Shown one piece after another: positions 7,674-45,749 of a stretch of DNA of 64,000 bases (the first letter of the stretch is position 1; every line of letters starts with the position of its first letter). Source of the stretch: Gemmatimonadota bacterium (GTDB lineage: Bacteria; Gemmatimonadota; Gemmatimonadetes; Longimicrobiales; RSA9); assembly GCA_040882575.1 (NCBI GenBank), contig JBBEBA010000053.1, positions 25,534 through 89,533 on the forward strand, given 5' to 3'. The notes under the pieces are model-generated. The model worked only from the letters and a program-made list of their open reading frames with translations, did not search any database and was not told the DNA's origin. A program made the translations under genes and the position numbers.

Positions 7674-9818
7674 TCAGTATGCGGCGAGCTCGTCGATGGC
7701 CGCGACGATGTCGTGGGTCTGCGGCAGGATCACGTCTTCGAGCTGCGGTGCATATGCCACCCAGGTGTCCATGGATGCGACGCGACGGACGGGCCCGTCG
7801 AGGTGCTCGAAGAGGTCGCTCGCGATGCGTGCCACGATCTCGGAGCCGATGCCCCACGACAGTGAGTCTTCGTGCGCGACGATGACCTTGCCCGTCTTGC
7901 GCACGGATGCGGCGATGGTGTCCATGTCGAGCGGGTTGAGCGAGCGGAGGTCGATCACCTCGACACTGATGCCGCGTTCCCCCGCGATGCGTGCTGCATC
8001 GAGCGAGCGCTTCACGACGGCGCCGCAGGTGATCACCGACAGGTCCGTGCCCTCCCGCACCACGGTCGCGCTGCCGAACGGGATCATGAAGTCGGGGCCC
8101 GGGTTCCGCCCCTTGTTGTAGACCTGCCGGTATAGATGCTTGTGCTCGAGGAAAATCACCGGATCCTCCGAGCGTATTGCGGTGCGGAGCAGGCCGTTCG
8201 CATCGAGCGCCGTGGCTGGCAGCACGACGCGCAGACCGGGCGTGTGGGTGAACAGCGTCTCGCCCGTCTGCGAGTGATAGATCGCGCCGCCCTTGAGGTA
8301 GCCGCCGTACGCGACGCGGATAACCACCGGGCACCACCAGTTGCCGCCGGAGCGGTAGCGCATGGTCGCGAGCTCGTCGCGGATCTGCATCATCGCCGGC
8401 CAGATGTAGTCGAAGAACTGGATCTCGACGACCGGCTTCAGGCCGCGTACGGCCATACCGATGGCGCGCCCGACTATGTTCGCCTCGGCGAGCGGCGTGT
8501 TGAACACGCGGTTCGAGCCAAATTTCCGCTGCAGGCCCCAGGTGCATTTGAAGACGCCGCCCTTGCCCTTCACTTCCTCGAGGGACGCTTCGCGGCTGCA
8601 GTCGGCGACGTCCTGGCCGAATACGACGATGCGCGGATCGCGCTGCATCTCGTCGCGAATGGCGACATTGATGAGATCGACCATGGTCGTCTCACCGCCC
8701 GCGAACTGCGGATCATCCTCCGTGTCGAAATCCGAAGACGTTGGATCGACGTTCGGCGAGAACAGGTGGTCGAGCGCAGTTTCGGGCGCCGGCTGCGGCA
8801 TTGCGATCGCGCGATCCGATGCGCCACGAACGTCCTCATCGACCTGCTTCTCGAGCGCGTCGAGCTCGGCCGCGGTCGCAATGCCCAGCTCGATGAGATC
8901 CCGTCGCGCGACGACGATCGGGTCCTGCTCCGCGTCCAGGCTGCGCTCCGACTCCGGGCGGTACAGCCGCTCGTCATCCGACATCGAGTGCGAGTACGGC
9001 CGCACCACGTGCGCGTGCAGCAGGGCAGGACCTTTCCGCTCGCGCGCGTACGCGACAGCGCGGCCGCAGGCTTCCCAGCTCTCGGTCAGACGCGTACCGT
9101 CGAACTCCTCGATGTACAGGTCCGGGAAGCCGGTGAGCAGTGCGCTGATGTTCCCGCCAGCCGTGCCCACCTCGACCGGCACCGAGATCGCATAGCCGTT
9201 GTCCTGGATCAGGAACACGACAGGCAGCTTCAGGTTCGTCGCCGTATTGAGCGCTTCCCAGAACTCGCCCTCCGATGTCTGGCCCTCGCCCGACGTGCAC
9301 AGCACGACCTCGTCCCTGGCGAATCCGGCGATGGCCGCGCTCATCGCTTCATCGCGCCCCGCACGCATGCCGGACTCCGCGCAGCCGACCGCCTGCAGGT
9401 ACTGCGTGCCGGTCGGCGATGACGTCGATGCGATGCGCAGCTCGCGGCTGCTCCAGTGTGACGGCATCTGACGCCCGCCACTCGCCGGATCCGCTGCGGC
9501 GCCGACCGCCTGCAGCAGCTGGTCGTACGGCGTTACGCCCAGCGCCTGGCTGAGTGCACGATCACGGTAGTAGAGGTAGAACCAGTCGGAGCCCGGACGC
9601 AGGTGTGCCGCCACTGCGACCTGCACTGCCTCATGGCCGGCGCCCGAGATCTGGAAGAAGATCCGGTTCTGTCGCTTGAGCAGGATCTCCTGATCGTCCG
9701 TCCGACGCGCCGCGACCATGGTGCGGTACATCGCGATGAGGCGGTCGCCGCTCAACACGCCGCGCCCCATCGTTCCGACGCTCTTCCGAGCGGCCTCCTT
9801 CTTCGTCTTTGCAGGCAT
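7674..9818 (-). CDS. 2-oxoacid dehydrogenase E1 component, fused alpha/beta subunits (TPP-dependent)
   Basis: 714-aa ORF. The N-terminal half is E1-alpha-like ([26 protein letters not shown]...[17 protein letters not shown]). The C-terminal half is E1-beta/transketolase-like ([36 protein letters not shown]...). Confidence 0.9.
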
Positions 9819-14602: not shown

Positions 14603-14693
14603 GGGGCGAAATACTGGGGCGAAATACTGGGGCGAGATACTGAGCCGAAATACCGGGGCGAAATACCGGGGCGAAATACCGGGGCGACACACC
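14603..14693. repeat. Tandem array, 13-nt unit GGGGCGAAATACY x7
   Basis: Read directly: ggggcgaaatact x2, ggggcgagatact, gagccgaaatacc, ggggcgaaatacc x2, ggggcgacacacc. It starts 5 nt after the fur stop. Confidence 0.9.
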
Positions 14694-14719
14694 GGGGAGG
14701 GGAAAGGGAGCCGTTTTGG

Positions 14720-14864
14720 CCGTTCACCCGCTTCACTCGCCTGCTTCAATCGCCCGGTTCATTCGCCTGCTTCACCAGCCCGGTTCACTCGCCTGCATCA
14801 TTCGCCCCCTTGTTTCGCCCCTTTATTCGCTCCTTTATTCGCCCCTTTATTCGCCCCTTCACTG
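14720..14864. repeat. Tandem array of ~11 units of 12-13 nt (YTTCAYTCGCCYG ... TTTATTCGCCCC), inverted relative to 14603-14693
   Basis: Read directly. The last units, tttattcgcccc, are the reverse complement of ggggcgaataaa, close to the left-arm unit ggggcgaaata. The array ends 14 nt before the agmatinase ATG. Confidence 0.85.
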
Positions 14865-23975: not shown

Positions 23976-24710
23976 GTGGCAACAGCGGCGGCGGGCAGCG
24001 GCCGGGCCGCGCGGGGGACGCCGCGCAGTCCGGCCGTTCTGCTGGAGGACGTGAAGTTCGCCTACGCGCGGTCGGCGACGGTGCTGAACGTGCCCCTGTT
24101 CCGCATCGAACGGGGCGAGCGCGTGTTCGTCTTCGGCCCCAGCGGCAGCGGCAAGACCACGCTGCTCGGCCTGCTGACCGGCGTGCTCCGCGCGGACGCC
24201 GGCGCGGTCCGCGTGCTCGATGCCGACCTGACGACGCTCTCGAACCGCGGGCGCGACGCGCTGCGCGCGGCGCACATGGGCTACATCTTCCAGTTGTTCA
24301 ATCTCATCCCGTACCTCTCGGTCGAGGAGAACATCGTGCTGCCCTGCCGGCTGAGCCGCGCGCGCGCAGCGCGGCTGAATGGCGTGTCGCCGGCCGCGGC
24401 GGCGGCCGCGCTCGCGAACGCACTCGGCATCGACATGCTGCTGAACGAGAAGGTGACGCGCCTCAGCGTCGGGCAGGCGCAGCGCGTCGCCGCGGCGCGC
24501 GCGCTGATCGGTGCGCCGGACCTGGTCGTGGCCGATGAGCCGACATCCGCGCTCGACTCGGACCGGCGCGAGCAGTTTCTCGAGCTGCTCTTCGAGCGCT
24601 GTGCTGACGCAGCAGCCACGCTCGTCTTCGTCAGCCACGACCGCCAGCTCGAGCACATGTTCGACCGCGCGCTCTCCCTCGACGATCTCAACCTGGCGTC
24701 GGCGCGCTGA
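23976..24710 (+). CDS. ABC transporter ATP-binding protein (MacB/LolD-like)
   Basis: Starts at the GTG at 23976 within ORF 23439..24710. Motifs are GPSGSGKTTLL, LSVGQAQRVAAARAL and LVVADEPTSALD. Confidence 0.9.
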   Translation: MATAAAGSGRAARGTPRSPAVLLEDVKFAYARSATVLNVPLFRIERGERVFVFGPSGSGKTTLLGLLTGVLRADAGAVRVLDADLTTLSNRGRDALRAAHMGYIFQLFNLIPYLSVEENIVLPCRLSRARAARLNGVSPAAAAAALANALGIDMLLNEKVTRLSVGQAQRVAAARALIGAPDLVVADEPTSALDSDRREQFLELLFERCADAAATLVFVSHDRQLEHMFDRALSLDDLNLASAR

Positions 24711-26026
24711 TGTTCCTGCTTTCGCTCGTGCGCAAGTCGCTCGCGAACCGGTTGCTCGCGACGTCGCTCACAATCGGCTCCATCGCGCTCAGCGTCGCAC
24801 TGCTGCTCGGCATCGAGAACGTGCGCGCCGGCATGCGCGAGAGCTTCTCGAGCACCATCAGCCGCACCGACCTGATCGTCGGCGCGCGTGGCGGCTCGCT
24901 GCAGCTGCTGCTGTACTCCGTGTTCGGCATTGGCTCGCCGACGAACAACCTCGACTGGGAGACGTACCAGCATTTTGTCGCGCATCCGGCCGTCGCGTGG
25001 ACGATCCCGATCTCGCTCGGCGACAGCTACCGCGGCTTTCGCGTGATCGGGACCGACAGCTCCTTCTACGAGCATTACCGCTACGGTGGCGACCGCGCCG
25101 TGGCAGTGGACCGCGGGCGCACGCCGCGCGGCGCGCGCGATGTCGTGCTCGGGCACCAGGTCGCCGACGAGCTCGGTTACGACGTCGGCAGCGATGTCGT
25201 CATCACGCACGGCCTTTATGGTTCCGGCATCATGGACCATGACGAGCAGCCGTTCCGCGTCGTCGGCGTGCTCGCGCGCACATTCACACCGGTGGACCGC
25301 GCGCTCTACGTCACGCTCGACGGCATCGATGCCGTGCACGAAGGCTTCATGACCGACCCGTTCGCGGGACCGGCGGGCGGCGTCCTGCCGGGCTTCGCGC
25401 CGCCGCCGGACTTTGCCGAGCGGCCGGCGGTTGCAGCCGACGCGGACAGTGCGCCGGCGCACGCTGGTGAGCCCGTGCAGGTCACGGCCTTCCTGCTCGG
25501 TGCGCGCAGCCGCATCGCAACGCTGCAGCTGCAGCGCGAGATCAACACGTACGAGCACGAGGCCATCATGGCCATCCTGCCGGGCGTCGCGCTGGCCGAG
25601 ATGTGGCGGGGTGTCGGCTACGCGGAGAGTGCGCTGCTGGTTGTAACGTTCTTCGTGGTGCTCGTCGGTCTGATCGGCATGCTGCTCAGCCTGTACTCGT
25701 CGCTCGAGGCGAGACGTCGTGAGATGGCGATCCTGCGAGCGGTCGGGGCCGGTGCGCCGAAGATCTTCGCGCTGCTGGTACTGGAGTCCGGCCTGCTTGG
25801 TGTCGCCGGTTCGATCGCCGGCGTCGCCCTGATCTACGCCCTGCTCGCGCTGCTGAAGGGGTGGGTGGCAGGCACATTCGGGCTGTACCTGCCGATCCTG
25901 CCGCCGACTCCGGCGGCGCTCAGCTACCTCGCCGCCGTCGTTGCTGCGTCGTTCCTGCTCGGCCTGGTGCCCGCCATGCGGGCGTATCGCAACAGCCTGG
26001 CCGACGGACTCACGGTGAGAGTCTGA
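24710..26026 (+). CDS. ABC transporter permease (FtsX/MacB-type)
   Basis: 438 aa. The start overlaps the ATPase stop (TGATG). It has an N-terminal TM helix, a periplasmic domain and a C-terminal FtsX-like 3-TM bundle. Confidence 0.85.
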   Translation: MFLLSLVRKSLANRLLATSLTIGSIALSVALLLGIENVRAGMRESFSSTISRTDLIVGARGGSLQLLLYSVFGIGSPTNNLDWETYQHFVAHPAVAWTIPISLGDSYRGFRVIGTDSSFYEHYRYGGDRAVAVDRGRTPRGARDVVLGHQVADELGYDVGSDVVITHGLYGSGIMDHDEQPFRVVGVLARTFTPVDRALYVTLDGIDAVHEGFMTDPFAGPAGGVLPGFAPPPDFAERPAVAADADSAPAHAGEPVQVTAFLLGARSRIATLQLQREINTYEHEAIMAILPGVALAEMWRGVGYAESALLVVTFFVVLVGLIGMLLSLYSSLEARRREMAILRAVGAGAPKIFALLVLESGLLGVAGSIAGVALIYALLALLKGWVAGTFGLYLPILPPTPAALSYLAAVVAASFLLGLVPAMRAYRNSLADGLTVRV

Positions 26027-26033
26027 CGCAGCA

Positions 26034-26089
26034 TTTCACGCTTCACGCTTCACGCTTCACGCTTCACGCTTCACGCTTCACGTTTCACG
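26034..26089. repeat. Heptamer tandem array (YTTCACG x8)
   Basis: Read directly: tttcacg, cttcacg x6, tttcacg, then ctgtt. It lies between the convergent permease stop (26026) and OMP stop (26101). Confidence 0.95.
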
Positions 26090-26100
26090 CTGTTGCCTTT

Positions 26101-26703
26101 TCAGAGGGCCAGCCGGCCGAGGAGCTTCAGCACCGAATGGTTCTGCCTGCCACCGCCGAGGTCCTCCTTCTCGTGGTAGCCCCAGATGCGGTTCCATTCC
26201 AGCGCGATGCCCTTGCCGACGGCGAACTGGTACTCGATGCCGGTGCCGGCGCGCAGCGCGAAATCGGGGTTCCAGCCGTCGAGCGAGTCGAGCTTGTATG
26301 CGATCGTGCCTGCGCCGCCCGTGAGGTAGATGCCGACCGTGCCGCCGCCGCCGTAGGCGAAGCGGCCGGTCAGCATGCCGGTCGCGATCGCGGCGTCGCC
26401 GCTCTCGAACACCACGTCGGTATCGAGGTAGGAGCGCTCCTGTCGCGTTGTCGCGTAGGTCCCCTCCACGCCGATCAGCAGGCCCTGTCCGAACTCGCGC
26501 TGCACGCCGGCACCGAAGCCGAAGCCTGTGTCGTCGAAGGTCCAGCGTGAATCGCTGTCGGGGTCGACGATCGACGAGATCGTCGTGTACATGACCGGGC
26601 CCGCGGAAATCGACGTGCGCGAAGGCGCATCCCGGACCTGACCGGATGCGGCGGGCGCAGTGGCGAGGAGGAGTGCGGCTGCGGCGATGATGCTCTTTGT
26701 CAT
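26101..26703 (-). CDS. Small outer-membrane beta-barrel protein
   Basis: 200 aa. The signal peptide is MTKSIIAAAALLLATAPAASGQ, followed by alternating Gly/aromatic strand pattern (FGFGAGVQREF, GVEGTYA, YLTGGAGTIAYKL, GTGIEYQF). Confidence 0.7.
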   Translation of the reverse strand: MTKSIIAAAALLLATAPAASGQVRDAPSRTSISAGPVMYTTISSIVDPDSDSRWTFDDTGFGFGAGVQREFGQGLLIGVEGTYATTRQERSYLDTDVVFESGDAAIATGMLTGRFAYGGGGTVGIYLTGGAGTIAYKLDSLDGWNPDFALRAGTGIEYQFAVGKGIALEWNRIWGYHEKEDLGGGRQNHSVLKLLGRLAL

Positions 26704-42728: not shown

Positions 42729-42851
42729 CGCGACAGTGTCCCGATCGAAAACCCGGACCGGCCTGCTCCGCCGTTTCCCCGACCCGCTGCTGTTGCCGGC
42801 AGCACCGCCACAGCCCATCTTGGACCAGGCACTCATCAAGGAGCAGACGAC

Positions 42852-43436
42852 ATGCATGTGCGGACCATCGCGCTCGCCGCAGCGCTCACCGCCGGACTCG
42901 CGGCGCCCGCCGCCGCGCAGGATGCGCTGACGAGCTCACCCCTCGAGGTCGGCGCAGTTGCGCCCGATTTCGCCATCACCGGTGCCACGCGCTACGGCGT
43001 CCTGCGGGAGCAGGTGCGATTGAGCGATTACGCGGGCCAGACCGTCGTCCTTGCCTTCTTCTTCAGGGCACGGACGCGCGGCTGAACGATTCAAATGCAC
43101 GCGTACCGTGATCAGTACGCGCAGGTATTCAACAACGGGCAGAACGTCGTGCTCATCGCGATCAGTGCGGATTCCATCGAGGACCTGCACTCGTGGGCGC
43201 ACGATGACCATTTCCAGTTCCTGATGGGCAGCGACACGGACCTCACCGTTGCCCGGCTGTACGGCGCCATGTCGCCACGCGGTCCGACGACGAACCGCAA
43301 CCTGTTTGTCATTGGTCCCGACGGCAGGATCGCACATCGCGCGGTGCCGTTCCGCGAGATCGATCCGACGGCGTACGAGGAGCTTGGCGAGGTGATCGAC
43401 CGGCTGGCGCCGGCCGCAGACTTGGAGGACGGCTGA
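42852..43436 (+). CDS. Exported peroxiredoxin (BCP/AhpC-TSA family) with an in-frame TGA at the peroxidatic position; probable selenocysteine protein
   Basis: ORFs 42852..43085 and 43095..43436 share one frame and are separated by TGA ACG ATT CAA. AAGGAG lies 8 nt upstream of the ATG. The signal peptide is MHVRTIALAAALTAGLAAPAAAQD. The joined sequence ...GQTVVLAFFFRARTRG[TGA]TIQMHAYRDQYAQVFNNGQNVVLIAISAD... fits the Prx T-x-x-C active-site layout. Confidence 0.7.
43100..43121 (+). promoter_or_regulatory. Candidate bacterial SECIS hairpin
   Basis: CGCGTAC-CGTGATCA-GTACGCG: a perfect 7-bp stem with an 8-nt loop containing GU. The stem starts 14 nt after the TGA at 43083-43085. Confidence 0.5.
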
Positions 43437-43442
43437 ACAACC

Positions 43443-43497
43443 CGTGAAGCGTGAATCGTGAAACGTATCCGTTACTCACGTCTCACGTTTCACGATG
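43443..43497. repeat. Inverted heptamer arrays (CGTGAAR x3 / loop / ACGTYTC x2-3) forming an imperfect ~17-bp hairpin
   Basis: Read directly: cgtgaagcgtgaatcgtgaaacgt-atccgttactc-acgtctcacgtttcacgatg. It lies between the convergent Prx stop (43436) and tlpA-like stop (43506). Confidence 0.9.
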
Positions 43498-43505
43498 TTT
43501 GATGT

Positions 43506-44018
43506 TTACTGTCCGAGCGCCTTCGCGGCAGCCGCCGCGAGGTCCTGCTCCGCCCCCACGCCCGTGTACACGACACGGCCGGCCACGTCCAGCGCCACGA
43601 TGTAGGAAGTAGACGGCGCGCGGTACGCCCGCGTTGCACGGCCGCGGCCGTCGAACAGCACCCGCCCCGGCAGTGAATGGTCCGTCAGATGCCGGCGGAT
43701 CGTGCGCGGTGTCTGATTGACGCCGACCGCGACGACGATCACCTCCAGTGCGTCGCCGTGCTTCCGCTTCACCGCCTCGAGCTGCGGCTCCAGCTCCTCG
43801 CACAGCGGACACCACGTCGCCCAGAACTCGACGATGACCGGCTTGCGTCCGACCCAGGTGCTCAGGTCCACGGTCGCTCCGTCGAGGTCCTCCAGCTGCA
43901 CTGCGTCCGGCACCGCGCCCAGCGGCAGACCGACATCCTGAGTCGCCGCGGGTGCCGCCGCCGCGAGTGGCGCCAGCAGCGCGAACAGCCCCGCGGCAAT
44001 GATAGGACGACGTCGCAT
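43506..44018 (-). CDS. TlpA-like periplasmic thiol:disulfide oxidoreductase (thioredoxin fold)
   Basis: Starts at the ATG at 44018 within ORF 43506..44792. The signal is MRRRPIIAAGLFALLAPLAAAAPAA. The active site is PVIVEFWATWCPLCEEL. Confidence 0.85.
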   Translation of the reverse strand: MRRRPIIAAGLFALLAPLAAAAPAATQDVGLPLGAVPDAVQLEDLDGATVDLSTWVGRKPVIVEFWATWCPLCEELEPQLEAVKRKHGDALEVIVVAVGVNQTPRTIRRHLTDHSLPGRVLFDGRGRATRAYRAPSTSYIVALDVAGRVVYTGVGAEQDLAAAAAKALGQ

Positions 44019-44029
44019 TCGATTCTCCC

Positions 44030-44704
44030 TCACATGACCATGCCCATCTGGATCAGGTAGTACTCCGCCATTGCGAGAAGGATCACGGCGGCGATCCGCT
44101 TCATCCAGATCAGCCACGGCCCGGAGCGGGGAAGACGAGCCAGCGTGCCGGAGAACAGGCCGACCACTACGAGCAGCGCGGTCATGCCCAGCGAGAAGAC
44201 GAAGAGGTAGAGGAACCCGAGGGCGCCGCTGCCGGTCGTGGAGACCCAGGTCAGCACTGCCGCGAACGCGGGCGCGCCGCACGGCGCCGCCACGATACCC
44301 GACGTCGCGCCCAGCAGGAACACGCCCGGGTAGGAGCCGCCGCCCAGCCCTGTCGCCCATGCCGTCAGCCGCCGTGGCGCCGTGACCGGGAAGACGTCGA
44401 GCATGGCGAGTCCGAAGATCAGCAGCAGGTTGGCGATCGCGAAACGCGCCCACGGATTGGCCGAGATCGTACCGAATAGCGTGCCCGTCAGGCCCGCGAT
44501 TAGTCCGAGCGTGGCGTACAGCAGTGCGAGACCCAGCACATACGTCAGCGTCAGCCCCAGCGTCCGCCACCGCGACGACGCTTCTCCCGCCGTGCCCGCG
44601 ATCACGCCCGCCGTAATGGGGATCATCGGGTAGATGCACGGTGTCAGGCTCGTCAGAACACCGGCGCCGAACAGCGTGGCTGCCGCCCACACCGGCCGCT
44701 CCAT
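44030..44704 (-). CDS. ccdA: CcdA/DsbD-family transmembrane electron transporter (second copy)
   Basis: Starts at the ATG at 44704 within ORF 44030..44785. GVLTSLTPCIYPMIPITAG and GIVAAPCGAPAFAAVL are present. The upstream part of the ORF is only a translation of the repeat array. Confidence 0.85.
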   Translation of the reverse strand: MERPVWAAATLFGAGVLTSLTPCIYPMIPITAGVIAGTAGEASSRWRTLGLTLTYVLGLALLYATLGLIAGLTGTLFGTISANPWARFAIANLLLIFGLAMLDVFPVTAPRRLTAWATGLGGGSYPGVFLLGATSGIVAAPCGAPAFAAVLTWVSTTGSGALGFLYLFVFSLGMTALLVVVGLFSGTLARLPRSGPWLIWMKRIAAVILLAMAEYYLIQMGMVM

Positions 44705-44730
44705 CAGTAGCTCCAAGGAGCCCCCCCTCA

Positions 44731-44817
44731 ACGTCGACGTGAACGACGTGAAACGTGAAGCGTAAAACGTAAACGTACGTTTCACGTCTCACGTTTCACG
44801 TTTCACGTTTCACGCTG
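44731..44817. repeat. Inverted heptamer arrays (ACGTGAAR-type units / ACGTTTC-type units), ~87 bp imperfect palindrome
   Basis: Read directly: acgtcgacgtgaacgacgtgaaacgtgaagcgtaaaacgtaaacgt followed by acgtttcacgtctcacgtttcacgtttcacgtttcacgctg. It lies between the lipoprotein stop (44819) and the ccdA start (44704). Confidence 0.9.
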
Positions 44818-44818
44818 T

Positions 44819-45178
44819 TCATTGCAGTCGAAGATACGGCCGCCACTCACCCGCGCCGACCTGCGCGTAGAGCCTGTCGTACGGCTCGGCCTCGCCGCGC
44901 ACCGCGTACAGCGGTGTGTCGCCGCCGTTGCCGACCGGTACGAGCACCGCGTCGGGAATCTTTTCCACCGGCAGTGACGGCATCCAGTTGCGTCCGGCTG
45001 CGGCGACGGGCCGGTCGCCGGGCGTCGCCTCGTAGACGGGGTAGCTGTAGGTGCGGTGCCGCGCCTCTTCCAGCGGCAGGTTCCGGTCGGGCAGACCATT
45101 GTCCCTGCACGCCGTCAGTCCCACGACAGTCATGACGCCGACCACGCACAGCCGGACCGTTCTGCGACCTGGCTTCAT
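44819..45178 (-). CDS. Small lipoprotein, unknown function
   Basis: GGAGG lies 5 nt upstream of the ATG at 45178. The N-terminus is MKPGRRTVRLCVVGVMTVVGLTACRDNG (lipobox). Confidence 0.6.
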   Translation of the reverse strand: MKPGRRTVRLCVVGVMTVVGLTACRDNGLPDRNLPLEEARHRTYSYPVYEATPGDRPVAAAGRNWMPSLPVEKIPDAVLVPVGNGGDTPLYAVRGEAEPYDRLYAQVGAGEWRPYLRLQ

Positions 45179-45269
45179 TCGTTCCTCCGATTGACTCACC
45201 GTTTGCATCCCTCCATTCTTCTGCCGCCGCGCCGCGGCGTCCACGCTCATTCGCCGGAGGCCCCATTTG

Positions 45270-45749
45270 ATGCGGATCGTGCTCGACCCCGTGCCCCTCG
45301 TCCTGGGCATCTACGCGTACGTTGGCGAGCTACTGTCGCGCACAGCCGAAAAGCGCGAGGATGACTCGGCCGAGGCGCTCGGTCGCCGCCTCTCCCGCCA
45401 GCGCGCCGCCGCCGGCGATCGCGATGCTCAGCGAATGGTCCGCGCGCTGCACGCGGACGTCAAGACGGCTGACAAGCTGCTCAAGAAGACGTCGGACGTG
45501 TGGAAGATATCGCAGGAAACCGACCTCGTCGACCTCGTCATCGTGCCGCGCGGCGAAGAGCAGACGCCCAGGGCATACGTGCTGCTGAAGCCCAGGGAGA
45601 TCCGGCCGCTGCTCGAGTCCATCCGCGCTGCCGCGGCCGGCGCCGGCGAGAGCGCAGCGACCCTGGCCGAGCTCGATCTGGCGATCGAGGGCGTTGACGG
45701 CAAGCCGAGCGATTACCTCACGTTCGGCTTCGATCCCTGGCAGGGTTGA
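45270..45749 (+). CDS. Hypothetical protein
   Basis: 159 aa with non-shadow composition (DVKTADKLLKKTSDVWKISQETDLVDLVIVPRGEEQTPRAYVLLKPREIRPLLESI). I recognise no family. Confidence 0.5.
   Translation: MRIVLDPVPLVLGIYAYVGELLSRTAEKREDDSAEALGRRLSRQRAAAGDRDAQRMVRALHADVKTADKLLKKTSDVWKISQETDLVDLVIVPRGEEQTPRAYVLLKPREIRPLLESIRAAAAGAGESAATLAELDLAIEGVDGKPSDYLTFGFDPWQG

What the first reader, a model, noticed from the sequence alone, without database searches (positions are those of the whole stretch)
44731..44817. Heptamer-built imperfect palindrome (CGTGAAR arrays facing TTCACGY arrays); one of three related elements, each abutting the 3' end of a minus-strand envelope gene
The ~87-bp element consists of ~7-nt units (ACGTGAA-type) on the left and their inverse (ACGTTTC-type) on the right. 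The three loci (26034-26089, 43443-43497, 44731-44817) share the same orientation. They also share an almost identical right terminus, CACGTTTCACGMTGTT. That end lies 2-12 nt from the stop codon of a minus-strand gene encoding an exported protein (OMP barrel, TlpA-like, lipoprotein). The shared terminus argues for one element family rather than independent slippage. It is not a CRISPR (no spacers) and not a classical REP that I recognise. Two copies bracket the tlpA-ccdA operon.
Basis: seen in the sequence. Interest (0 to 1): 0.6.

Follow-up and report, generated by a model that had tools for sequence, protein, structure and literature searches.

The report
Heptamer-repeat hairpin after stop codon
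The 87-base element is one of about 64 copies of a hairpin-forming repeat made of the 7-base unit CGTGAAN, placed right after gene ends. It is a new sequence family of the known but unexplained bacterial "heptamer repeats", and here it is tied to a small four-helix-bundle gene cassette.

Summary
Window 44731-44817 is an imperfect palindrome of CGTGAAN units facing NTTCACG units (RNA fold -45 to -51 kcal/mol, z -5.4 to -7.3). Locus 43443-43497 is a smaller copy. Locus 26034-26089 is a one-armed array, not a palindrome.

The family is genome-wide, with 72 array clusters at about 64 loci. It is absent from 40 relatives, including 7 congeners, yet present in many copies in scattered species of several phyla. 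Polarity is fixed: CGTGAA arrays 5' and TTCACG arrays 3' gave 74 matches against 0 for the reverse order.

Arrays start at or within about 20 nt after a stop codon in sense orientation (48 of 89 array heads against 6% expected). They are not specific to minus-strand or envelope genes. Congeners carry ordinary GC-rich hairpins at the same junctions. A 99.8%-identical assembly differs by exactly one 7-nt unit.

No RAYT transposase, shared core or target duplication was found. One copy encloses a PF05635 four-helix-bundle gene as a 586-bp insertion relative to congeners. The same packaging recurs in five other genomes.

Most likely it is a slippage-prone transcript-end hairpin. It is a new member of the heptamer-repeat kind known from Xanthomonas GGGAATC arrays, cyanobacterial STRR repeats and the Coxiella rRNA intervening sequence. 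How it spreads is unresolved.

The parts
44731..44819 (.). Heptamer-array hairpin (the finding), including the terminal CTGTT
   Evidence: It folds as one stem-loop on both strands, at -44.9 and -51.2 kcal/mol.
44738..44773 (+). Left (F) arm: CGTGAAC-GA-CGTGAAA-CGTGAAG, then degenerate CGTAAAA and CGTAAA units
   Evidence: The near-identical assembly L050 has one extra CGTGAAA unit in this arm.
44774..44779 (.). Palindromic centre CGTACG (hairpin loop)
44780..44814 (+). Right (R) arm: TTTCACG, TCTCACG, then TTTCACG x3
   Evidence: ACGTTTC x5.4, 93% matches
44804..44819 (+). Family terminus CACGTTTCACGCTGTT. Its last T is the first base of the stop codon complement (TCA, 44819-44821) of the upstream gene.
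44819..45145 (-). 108-aa ORF with no Pfam match. Its native TGA stop (C-terminus YLRLQ*) is at the same position as in congeners (YLRLN*).
44030..44704 (-). ccdA (DsbD_TM, E 4e-45). Candidate starts are ATG 44704, TTG 44716 and TTG 44731, so the element lies 0-26 nt upstream of the start.
43506..44018 (-). tlpA-like thiol-disulfide oxidoreductase (Redoxin / AhpC-TSA / Thioredoxin)
43443..43499 (.). Second family member: a hairpin (CGTGAAG, CGTGAAT, CGTGAAA / CTCACG, TCTCACG, TTTCACG) plus ATGTT, between convergent genes
   Evidence: -28.9 and -27.8 kcal/mol, z -5.1 and -4.4. It is identical in L050.
43095..43436 (+). AhpC/TSA-family gene. Its stop TGA lies 6 nt before the first CGTGAA of the second element.
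26034..26094 (+). Third family member: a one-armed array, (YTTCACG)x8 plus CTGTT, with no inverted arm
   Evidence: no significant fold
26101..26703 (-). OMP beta-barrel gene. Its stop follows the one-armed array by 7-11 nt; in this gene's sense the array reads CGTGAAR.
24710..26026 (+). FtsX/MacB-type permease gene, convergent with the OMP gene. Its stop lies 8 nt before the array.

Best explanation
The element is one copy of a lineage-specific, genome-wide family of dispersed heptanucleotide arrays with unit CGTGAAN. It is the same kind of thing as the Xanthomonas GGGAATC, cyanobacterial STRR and Beggiatoaceae TAACTGA heptamer repeats. An array begins at, or within about 20 nt after, a stop codon, oriented so that the mRNA reads CGUGAAN. 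Three units then put UGA in all three frames. A second array in the opposite sense completes an imperfect stem of roughly 25-35 bp. Shown: the anatomy, placement, polarity and fold. Also shown: the number of units changes in 7-nt steps between near-identical genomes, and each arm is homogenised on its own, as replication slippage would do. Inferred: in the transcript the hairpin acts as a U-tract-less transcript-end structure, that is, a terminator, an RNA 3'-end protector or an insulator between cistrons. Here it would work between the 108-aa ORF and ccdA-tlpA, and bidirectionally at 43443-43497. It takes the place that ordinary GC-rich hairpins hold at the same junctions in congeners. The way copies reach new sites is not established. 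It does not involve a RAYT or a classical MITE mechanism, and it is linked in some way to PF05635 four-helix-bundle (IVS-type) cassettes.
For: Family and specificity: the 3-unit pattern gives 74+70 matches in this genome and 0 in 40 relatives; the reversed control gives 0. There are 72 clusters. Placement: 66 of 72 clusters are intergenic in a genome that is 91% coding. 48 of 89 sense-facing ends abut a stop, against 6.3% expected (p = 7e-34) and 3 of 37 antisense-facing ends. Hairpins are enriched about 8-fold between convergent genes (p = 6e-6). Stops lie inside units 1-3 at about 10 loci here and in Acidobacteriota, Chloroflexota, Nitrospirota and Gemmatimonadales genomes. Polarity: F..R gives 74 matches and R..F gives 0 in 26 genomes. 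Fold: -45 to -51 kcal/mol for this copy, with a median of -44 over 23 hairpin copies. Same positions in congeners: the orthologous spacers hold unrelated GC-rich hairpins with z down to -4.0. Slippage: L050 (GCA_040878885.1) is 99.8% identical over 4 kb and its only indel is one CGTGAAA unit in this element. Higher-order 14-, 20- and 30-nt repeats occur. The two arms differ in unit number and in the 7th base. Precedent: Xanthomonas GGGAATC arrays are 89-93% intergenic, lie on average 28 nt from the upstream ORF against 160 nt to the next one, and form 70-75 convergent pairs (PMC4692102).
Against: There is no U-tract, and the consensus terminator scan finds nothing. One-armed arrays such as 26034-26089 obey the same placement rule but cannot form a hairpin, so the hairpin may be secondary. 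The arms are not kept complementary at the 7th base. The family is absent from all congeners, so it is dispensable. Slippage alone does not explain how one unit reached about 64 loci, or why the same CGTGAA core with the same polarity appears in unrelated phyla.
Confidence: 0.55

Rival explanations
1. The hairpin is a gene-less derivative (empty arms) of a mobile IVS-like cassette: a PF05635 four-helix-bundle gene enclosed by inverted heptamer arrays. The cassette system, possibly through the 4HB protein binding the arrays, makes or propagates the arrays at sites just after stop codons.
For: At C66:16311-16874, F x7 - PF05635 gene - R x5 forms a 586-bp block. It is absent from two congeners, where the same two flanking genes are 18 nt apart. 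The F-4HB-R layout also occurs in G046 (Nitrospirota), G050 (Gemmatimonadaceae), G043 (Pyrinomonadaceae), G041 (a proteobacterium) and G174. That is 6 of about 67 4HB genes, against about 0.1% of ordinary genes (Poisson p = 1e-10). All six array-rich genomes of the phylum sample carry PF05635. The other 4HB genes of this genome are flanked by other inverted repeats or repeat arrays. The published Coxiella IVS has a gene of the same family, a 28-bp stem and strain-variable tandem heptamers (PMC4990558).
Against: Only 1 of about 64 loci here holds the gene. The array-flanked 4HB proteins are not each other's closest relatives, since G000's best hits are congener paralogues at 41%. PF05635 is present in 240 of 401 genomes of the phylum, but arrays in only 17. 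No enzyme and no target duplication were found, and the enclosed segments of the spaced F-segment-R loci are unique. One orthologous locus in G288 and G098 has the reverse order, R-4HB-F. The 26 viral contigs with arrays have no 4HB gene.
Confidence: 0.22
2. The arrays are a neutral by-product with no function and no mobility. Slippage, plus quasi-palindrome (template-switch) correction, turns pre-existing post-stop hairpins or stop-codon contexts into tandem arrays. Arrays survive only where they do no harm.
For: The genome holds several unrelated families with the same placement: (GGGGGAGC)n at 24 loci, (GCGTGT)n at 17 loci, and inverted 13-mer arrays at 14603-14859. The congener sequence at the C66 site (AAGTAGAACG) already resembles the unit (ACGTGAAACG). 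Four of 80 metagenomic relatives carry other G-rich heptamer arrays just after ccdA. The arms are not kept complementary.
Against: Independent slippage should give many different units. Instead, 38 of 49 perfect heptamer arrays here share one unit, and many share a distinct terminus (AACAR / YTGTT) that is not a unit in phase. The same core with the same polarity recurs across phyla.
Confidence: 0.15
3. The arrays are docking sites for a single-strand nucleic-acid-binding protein, such as a cold-shock or S1-type protein binding one per heptamer, or are periodic YC rut-like sites for Rho on the antisense RNA. They would act after transcription rather than through the hairpin.
For: One-armed arrays follow the same rule as hairpins. 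The purine-rich strand is always the sense strand, as with the octamer and hexamer families. MacGregor 2015 proposes S1, Csp or CsrA binding for TAACTGA repeats and notes that CspB binds heptamer repeats (PMC4679880).
Against: No candidate protein was identified. The family is absent from congeners, which share the core proteome. In two-armed copies pairing would hide the sites.
Confidence: 0.05
4. The arrays are ParB-related: units are parS half-sites (GTGAAAC is 7 of the 8 bases of GTGAAACA) and act as ParB decoys or loading aids.
For: The genome's only two parS sites (C33:9024 and 9120, upstream of parA-parB near dnaA) are flanked by F x6 and R x2 arrays. The universality of parS would explain the same core in many phyla.
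Against: A full parS has R-then-F polarity, which never occurs among arrays (0 of 74). The 7th base is T, C or G in other species. parS in three other array-bearing genomes has no arrays nearby. A 7-bp direct spacing does not fit a ParB dimer; this last point is inference.
Confidence: 0.02
5. It is a REP/REPIN element mobilised by a RAYT (Y1 transposase), or a classical MITE.
For: It is intergenic and hairpin-forming, lies at gene 3' ends, has many copies and is species-specific.
Against: PF01797 has 0 matches in this genome, and also in array-rich G050, while it is found in 15 of the 18 genomes searched. There is no conserved core, no direct target duplication and no GTAG head.
Confidence: 0.01

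Closest known systems
Xanthomonas GGGAATC (and Nostoc GGGGAYT) heptameric repeats, Rehm et al. 2015 (PMC4692102)
   Same: Both are tandem 7-nt units at about 180 dispersed loci, about 90% intergenic. Both lie much closer to the upstream ORF's end than to the next ORF, with the G-rich strand on the coding strand downstream of ORFs. Both form 70-75 convergent inverted pairs, are rare between divergent genes, vary in length between close relatives, and have no known function.
   Different: The unit differs (CGTGAAN). It has no G-runs, so no G-quadruplex potential. It carries UGA in all frames. The same core is found in many phyla. The polarity rule and the 4HB link are not described there.
TAACTGA direct repeats of marine Beggiatoaceae, Cyanobacteria and Bacteroidetes, MacGregor 2015 (PMC4679880)
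   Same: Both are one specific heptamer, sporadic across unrelated phyla, with 'no mechanism evident'. In both, forward repeats give stops in all three frames and sometimes overlap the upstream stop codon.
   Different: TAACTGA sets are mostly direct repeats just upstream of start codons, with only one inverted set in 170. The CGTGAAN arrays sit after stops and are commonly paired as hairpins.
ORF-bearing 23S rRNA intervening sequence (Coxiella burnetii IVS with S23p), Warrier et al. 2016 (PMC4990558)
   Same: A gene of the same protein family (PF05635) lies inside a stem formed by terminal inverted repeats, with tandem heptamers whose number varies between strains. The C66 copy here has this layout.
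   Different: The IVS sits in rRNA helix 45 and is cut out by RNase III. Here the sites are mRNA gene junctions, and the element under study has no ORF. No RNase III was detected in this draft genome.
REP / BIME / REPIN elements with RAYT transposases
   Same: Both are intergenic palindromes at gene 3' ends, present in many copies and lineage-specific. REP elements have a proposed role in mRNA 3'-end stability; this point rests on my own knowledge.
   Different: There is no RAYT. The arms are tandem microsatellites of variable unit number rather than a fixed 20-40-nt palindrome.
U-tract-less ('I-shaped') hairpin terminators of high-GC bacteria
   Same: Both are a strong stem immediately after the stop codon with no T-run. 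Congeners have such hairpins at the same junctions.
   Different: This stem is 2-3 times longer, moderately AT-containing and built of repeats. Terminator activity was not tested.

Membership tests
Dispersed heptameric simple-sequence repeats (Xanthomonas GGGAATC type / STRR type) | Head-to-tail 7-nt units, 2 to more than 10 copies per array | tested here: met
   Arrays have up to 12 units. The 7th base is A 149, G 85, T 19, C 7.
Dispersed heptameric simple-sequence repeats (Xanthomonas GGGAATC type / STRR type) | Many dispersed, mostly intergenic loci, closer to the upstream ORF end than to the next ORF | tested here: met
   66 of 72 clusters were called intergenic, and 3 of the other 6 were traced to gene-calling artefacts. 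Distances to the stop are -19 to +15 nt, against 41-233 nt to the next start. p = 7e-34.
Dispersed heptameric simple-sequence repeats (Xanthomonas GGGAATC type / STRR type) | Convergent (inverted) pairs, and scarcity between divergent genes | tested here: met
   There are 23 two-armed loci. Divergent spacers hold 9 of 52 arrays but 31% of intergenic bases.
Dispersed heptameric simple-sequence repeats (Xanthomonas GGGAATC type / STRR type) | G-quadruplex-forming G-tracts (specific to the Xanthomonas and Nostoc families) | tested here: not met
   The unit CGTGAAN has no G-run.
REP/REPIN-RAYT | A RAYT (Y1 transposase, PF01797) gene in the genome, flanked by the repeats | tested here: not met
   0 matches in G000.
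MITE | Conserved internal core, target-site duplication and an autonomous transposase partner | tested here: not met
   The enclosed segments of the spaced F-segment-R loci are unique. Flanks are inverted (AACAR / YTGTT), not direct. No partner was found.
Intrinsic (rho-independent) terminator | GC-rich stem-loop followed by a U-tract | tested here: not met
   A stem is present, but 0 terminator-like sites were found in 42800-45400.
Intrinsic (rho-independent) terminator | Transcript 3' ends map to the element | not testable with these tools
IVS-like PF05635 (S23p / 4HB) cassette | A PF05635 ORF enclosed by terminal inverted repeats | tested here: not met
   There is no ORF in 44731-44817. The feature is met by the sister copy at C66:16311-16874 (PF05635 55 bits; insertion shown).
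IVS-like PF05635 (S23p / 4HB) cassette | Excision of the stem by RNase III | tested here: inconclusive
   PF14622 gave 0 matches and no RNase III signature motif was found in six-frame translations of the draft genome. There are no RNA data.
parS / ParB site | 16-bp palindrome TGTTNCACGTGNAACA | tested here: not met
   The only two parS sites are at C33. Arrays contain only a 7-of-8 half-site and never the R-then-F order.
CRISPR array | Repeats of 24-48 nt separated by unique spacers | tested here: not met
   The units are contiguous 7-mers.
Any Rfam family | Score at or above the gathering threshold | tested here: not met
   The only hit is mir-6301 at 24.9 bits against a threshold of 70, E 0.052. 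It reflects the hairpin shape only.

The most novel reading that the evidence does not exclude
CGTGAAN arrays and PF05635 four-helix-bundle genes form one cross-phylum genetic system. The armed 4HB cassette, an 'mRNA intervening sequence', would be the source, and the 4HB oligomer would read the heptamer arrays. Gene-less hairpins like 44731-44817 would be its dispersed offspring, homing to the first nucleotides after stop codons. That would explain both the long-standing excess of heptamer repeats in bacteria and the function of the orphan S23p/IVS protein family.
Probability: 0.2. Interest if true: 0.8.

Novelty: new member of a known kind. Interest (0 to 1): 0.45.

Why it matters
Heptanucleotide repeats are the most over-represented long microsatellites in bacteria. 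They have been described in Xanthomonas, cyanobacteria and Beggiatoaceae, but no origin or function is known. This family adds four hard constraints on any explanation.

- One 6-base core recurs in unrelated phyla.
- The polarity rule is absolute, 74 to 0.
- Arrays start at stop codons, which the units themselves can supply.
- The family appears in one species while seven congeners lack it.

It also gives a clean filled-versus-empty site for a four-helix-bundle gene enclosed by the same arrays. That ties the repeats to the equally unexplained rRNA 'intervening sequence' protein family.

On the practical side, the arrays break short-read assemblies at 10 contig ends here and distort gene calling. 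They can be mistaken for regulatory sites.

Tried and rejected
- **Rfam.** The only hit was a sub-threshold miRNA-precursor match that reflects hairpin shape.
- **RAYT / REPIN.** PF01797 is absent.
- **MITE with a common core.** The segments enclosed between spaced F and R arrays are all unique.
- **parS / ParB.** The unit is 7 of 8 bases of a parS half-site, and arrays flank the only two parS sites. But parS polarity never occurs among arrays, parS in three other array-bearing genomes has no arrays nearby, and the 7th base differs between species.
- **'NTG of the terminus is a start codon'.** The Nitrospira hits are better read as an orthologous protein C-terminus running into the array.
- **Arrays inside genes.** All three checked cases are antisense shadow ORFs from my gene caller.
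- **Horizontal transfer of one armed cassette.** The armed 4HB proteins do not cluster together.
- **RNase III processing.** No rnc gene was detected in the draft genome.
- **Strain comparison.** Only one locus of the near-identical assembly could be retrieved. It was not held for whole-genome search. A metagenome scan for the flank found nothing, and the closest metagenomic ccdA is 79% identical.
- **Literature.** No paper in the searchable library contains CGTGAA-type arrays.

Full report
**What is at the coordinates**

Window 44731-44819 reads ACGTCGA-CGTGAAC-GA-CGTGAAA-CGTGAAG-CGTAAAA-CGTAAA-CGTACG-TTTCACG-TCTCACG-TTTCACG-TTTCACG-TTTCACG-CTGTT. Tandem Repeats Finder reports ACGTGAA x4.6 followed by ACGTTTC x5.4.

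As RNA it folds into a single long stem-loop on either strand. The values are -51.2 kcal/mol (z -7.3) and -44.9 kcal/mol (z -5.4), and no shuffle folded as well.

Locus 43443-43497 is a shorter copy (-28.9 and -27.8 kcal/mol). Locus 26034-26089 is eight YTTCACG units with no inverted arm and no significant fold.

The 'lipoprotein' ORF has no Pfam match. Rfam holds nothing real here.

**The family in this genome**

The window is C53:25534-89533 of a draft genome of 3.75 Mb, 104 contigs and 67.7% G+C. Clustering CGTGAA and TTCACG hexamers gives 72 array clusters at about 64 loci, 3.8 kb in total.

- Ten contig ends and three scaffold gaps lie in arrays.
- Independent Logan contigs of run SRR27977658 also break at arrays.
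- Three tandem units occur 144 times here and never in 40 relatives, including seven species of the same genus. The reversed-pattern control gives 0.
- In a 401-genome sample of the phylum, 17 genomes have at least one match. Five others have more than 10 matches, none of them in this genome's own order.

**Placement and polarity**

I built a codon-usage gene caller that gave 3260 genes and 91% coding. With it, 66 of 72 clusters are intergenic. Three of the six apparent intragenic cases were checked, and all three are antisense shadow ORFs.

The rule is symmetric between strands. A gene ends, and within -19 to +15 nt the array begins in the orientation in which that gene's mRNA reads CGUGAAN.

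- 48 of 89 such 'head' ends have a stop codon reading into them. This compares with 6.3% of random intergenic positions (p = 7e-34) and 3 of 37 'tail' ends (p = 8e-7).
- At about ten loci the stop codon is the TGA of unit 1, 2 or 3.
- Because the period is 7, three units give TGA in all three frames, while the opposite orientation has no stops.
- Two-armed copies are about 8-fold enriched between convergent genes (p = 6e-6), but nine lie between co-directional genes, including the element under study.
- About half of the heads carry a terminal AACAR (YTGTT on the other side) that is not a unit in phase.
- Arrays always run CGTGAA first and TTCACG second. The pattern F-gap-R gives 74 matches in six of 26 genomes, and R-gap-F gives none.

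The association with minus-strand envelope genes is therefore an accident of this window.

**Comparison with relatives**

Synteny around ccdA-tlpA is conserved in all seven congeners at 72-79% nucleotide identity. The native stop codons are in the same positions: YLRLQ* against YLRLN*, and ALGQ* against AVGQ*. The spacers are unrelated and hold ordinary GC-rich hairpins with z down to -4.0. The spacer between the 108-aa ORF and ccdA ranges from about 10 to about 200 nt among the congeners.

None of 80 metagenomic relatives of this locus (66-79% CcdA identity) has CGTGAAN arrays. Four have other G-rich heptamer arrays 10-25 nt after ccdA.

A second assembly, GCA_040878885.1 (contig JBBDLK010000202.1), is 99.8% identical over 4 kb. 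It differs by one substitution and one indel, which is exactly one extra CGTGAAA unit in the left arm of this element.

The arms of the 23 hairpin copies differ in unit number and in the 7th base, for example AAAAAC against CCCCCC. Higher-order 14-, 20- and 30-nt repeats occur. These are the marks of ongoing slippage acting on each arm separately.

**The same unit elsewhere**

A scan of one genome per species for (TTCACGN)3TGTT found 25 stretches, against about 0.07 expected by my own arithmetic. They lie in Nitrospirota, Acidobacteriota, Chloroflexota, Gemmatimonadales, Verrucomicrobiota, Patescibacteria, Ignavibacteria, Desulfobacterales and others, with G+C from 32 to 67%.

Several of those genomes hold dozens to hundreds of 3-unit matches: 245, 113, 109 and 77. 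The control is near zero, and each genome has its own preferred 7th base. Long ORFs in them end in the TGA of unit 1-3, on both sides of hairpins. Twenty-six viral contigs also carry arrays of four or more units.

**What it is not**

- It is not a RAYT/REPIN system, because PF01797 is absent.
- It is not a MITE with a core, because the enclosed segments of spaced F-segment-R loci are unique and there is no direct target duplication.
- It is not a canonical terminator, because there is no T-run.
- The parS idea is a weak lead at best. The unit is 7 of 8 bases of a parS half-site, and arrays flank the only two parS sites, upstream of parA. Against it, parS has the polarity that arrays never show, parS in three other genomes has no arrays nearby, and the 7th base varies.

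**Link to four-helix-bundle cassettes**

I found this link before reading any earlier notes. At C66:16311-16874 an F x7 array starts in the stop codon of an epimerase-like gene. A PF05635 (23S rRNA IVS protein) gene follows, and then an R x5 array 13 nt before the next gene.

In congeners G003 and G006 the same two genes are 18 nt apart, so the 586-bp block is an insertion. The congener sequence at the junction (AAGTAGAACG) already resembles the unit (ACGTGAAACG).

The same F-4HB-R packaging occurs in G046, G050, G043, G041 and G174. That is six of about 67 PF05635 genes examined, against about 0.1% of ordinary genes (p = 1e-10). One orthologous locus in two species has the reverse order.

The other 4HB genes of this genome are flanked by other inverted repeats or repeat arrays.

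Limits on this link:
- The armed proteins are not a clade.
- PF05635 is far commoner than the arrays, 240 against 17 of 401 genomes.
- 63 of 64 loci here have no gene.

The published Coxiella IVS has the same ingredients: an S23p ORF, a 28-bp stem, strain-variable tandem heptamers and RNase III excision (PMC4990558). However, I could detect no RNase III gene in this draft genome.

**Other repeat families here**

(GGGGGAGC)n at 24 loci and (GCGTGT)n at 17 loci obey the same rule, lying just after stops with the G-rich strand in the sense orientation. Some form inverted pairs. Window 14603-14859 holds inverted arrays of 12-13-nt units. So the placement rule does not depend on this particular unit.

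**Comparison with the literature**

Xanthomonas GGGAATC repeats match nearly point for point. They have about 185 loci, are about 90% intergenic, and lie 28 nt from the upstream ORF against 160 nt to the next one. They form 70-75 convergent pairs, are scarce between divergent genes, vary in length, and have no known function (PMC4692102).

TAACTGA repeats share the sporadic cross-phylum distribution and the all-frame stops (PMC4679880).

No paper in the searchable library contains CGTGAA-type arrays.

Earlier notes of this scan report the same architecture and the same 4HB link in other genomes. I treat them as agreement, not as evidence.

**Verdict**

The element is a real, slippage-prone member of a new sequence family of the known heptamer-repeat kind. 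It most likely serves, or is at least tolerated, as a U-tract-less transcript-end hairpin between the 108-aa ORF and ccdA-tlpA (inferred, confidence 0.55 for the whole statement). The anatomy, placement, polarity, lineage specificity and 7-nt polymorphism are shown. The function and the means of spread are not.

Noticed in passing
window 14603-14864: A second kind of inverted tandem-array structure. About seven GGGGCGAAATACY units face arrays of 12-13-nt units of opposite sense (ATTCGCCCCTTT and GCTTCACTCGCCT types).
   Followed up: partly
G000 genome-wide (e.g. C38:116979-117002, C38:118378-118409, C83:18844-18867): (GGGGGAGC)n octamer arrays occur at 24 loci. Nearly all lie 0-13 nt after a stop codon with the G-rich strand in sense, and they are one-armed. 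(GCGTGT)n hexamer arrays occur at 17 loci, including inverted pairs at C60:26189-26315 and C88:10262-10324.
   Followed up: partly
G000 C33:8932-9135: The genome's only two parS sites (TGTTTCACGTGAAACA at 9024 and TGTTCCACGTGAAACA at 9120) lie upstream of parA-parB, near yidC-rnpA-rpmH-dnaA. They sit between an F x6 and an R x2 heptamer array.
   Followed up: partly
G000 C66:16311-16874 (locus L073): A PF05635 four-helix-bundle gene enclosed by F x7 and R x5 arrays forms a 586-bp insertion. In congeners G003 and G006 the flanking genes are 18 nt apart. The last two codons and the stop of the upstream gene are overwritten by array sequence without any change in protein length.
   Followed up: yes
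G000 C6:12400-13200; C36:120536-121250; C54:82000-82750: The other PF05635 genes of this genome are flanked by other repeats. C6 has an imperfect inverted repeat of about 22 nt (GGGTCGGACGTGGGGGAGGAGT / ACTCCTCCTCCACGTCCGACCC). C36 has ACACGC arrays on one side and CCCGTGAC octamer arrays on the other.
   Followed up: no
window 44704-44740: The N-terminus of ccdA differs from congeners, which begin M-I-A-L-L-Q-S-G-L-G-S. The element's left edge abuts a candidate TTG start at 44731, so the element may have reshaped the 5' end of ccdA.
   Followed up: partly
loci L011, L015, L020, L024 (four Nitrospira-type genomes): An apparently orthologous protein C-terminus (...EKHRET*, ...QEHREA*, ...EKHREA*) runs into a CGTGAAN array, with the stop in unit 2. 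This suggests the array has persisted at one locus across species.
   Followed up: no
G000 whole genome: No RNase III was detected (PF14622 gave 0 matches, and no ERLEFLGD-type signature was found in six-frame translations), although completeness is estimated at 100%.
   Followed up: partly
G000 contig ends (C2, C23, C24, C40, C41, C43, C46, C72, C104); Logan contigs L051-L053: Heptamer arrays end 10 of 208 contig ends and flank 3 of 50 scaffold gaps. Independent Logan contigs of SRR27977658 break at the same arrays, so the copy number of the family is probably underestimated.
   Followed up: partly
loci L213, L214, L227, L244 (metagenomic relatives of the ccdA locus): Other G-rich heptamer arrays, (GGTGCGC)3, (CGTGCGT)3 and (GGCGTGG)3, sit 10-25 nt after the ccdA match in 4 of 80 related contigs.
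   Followed up: no
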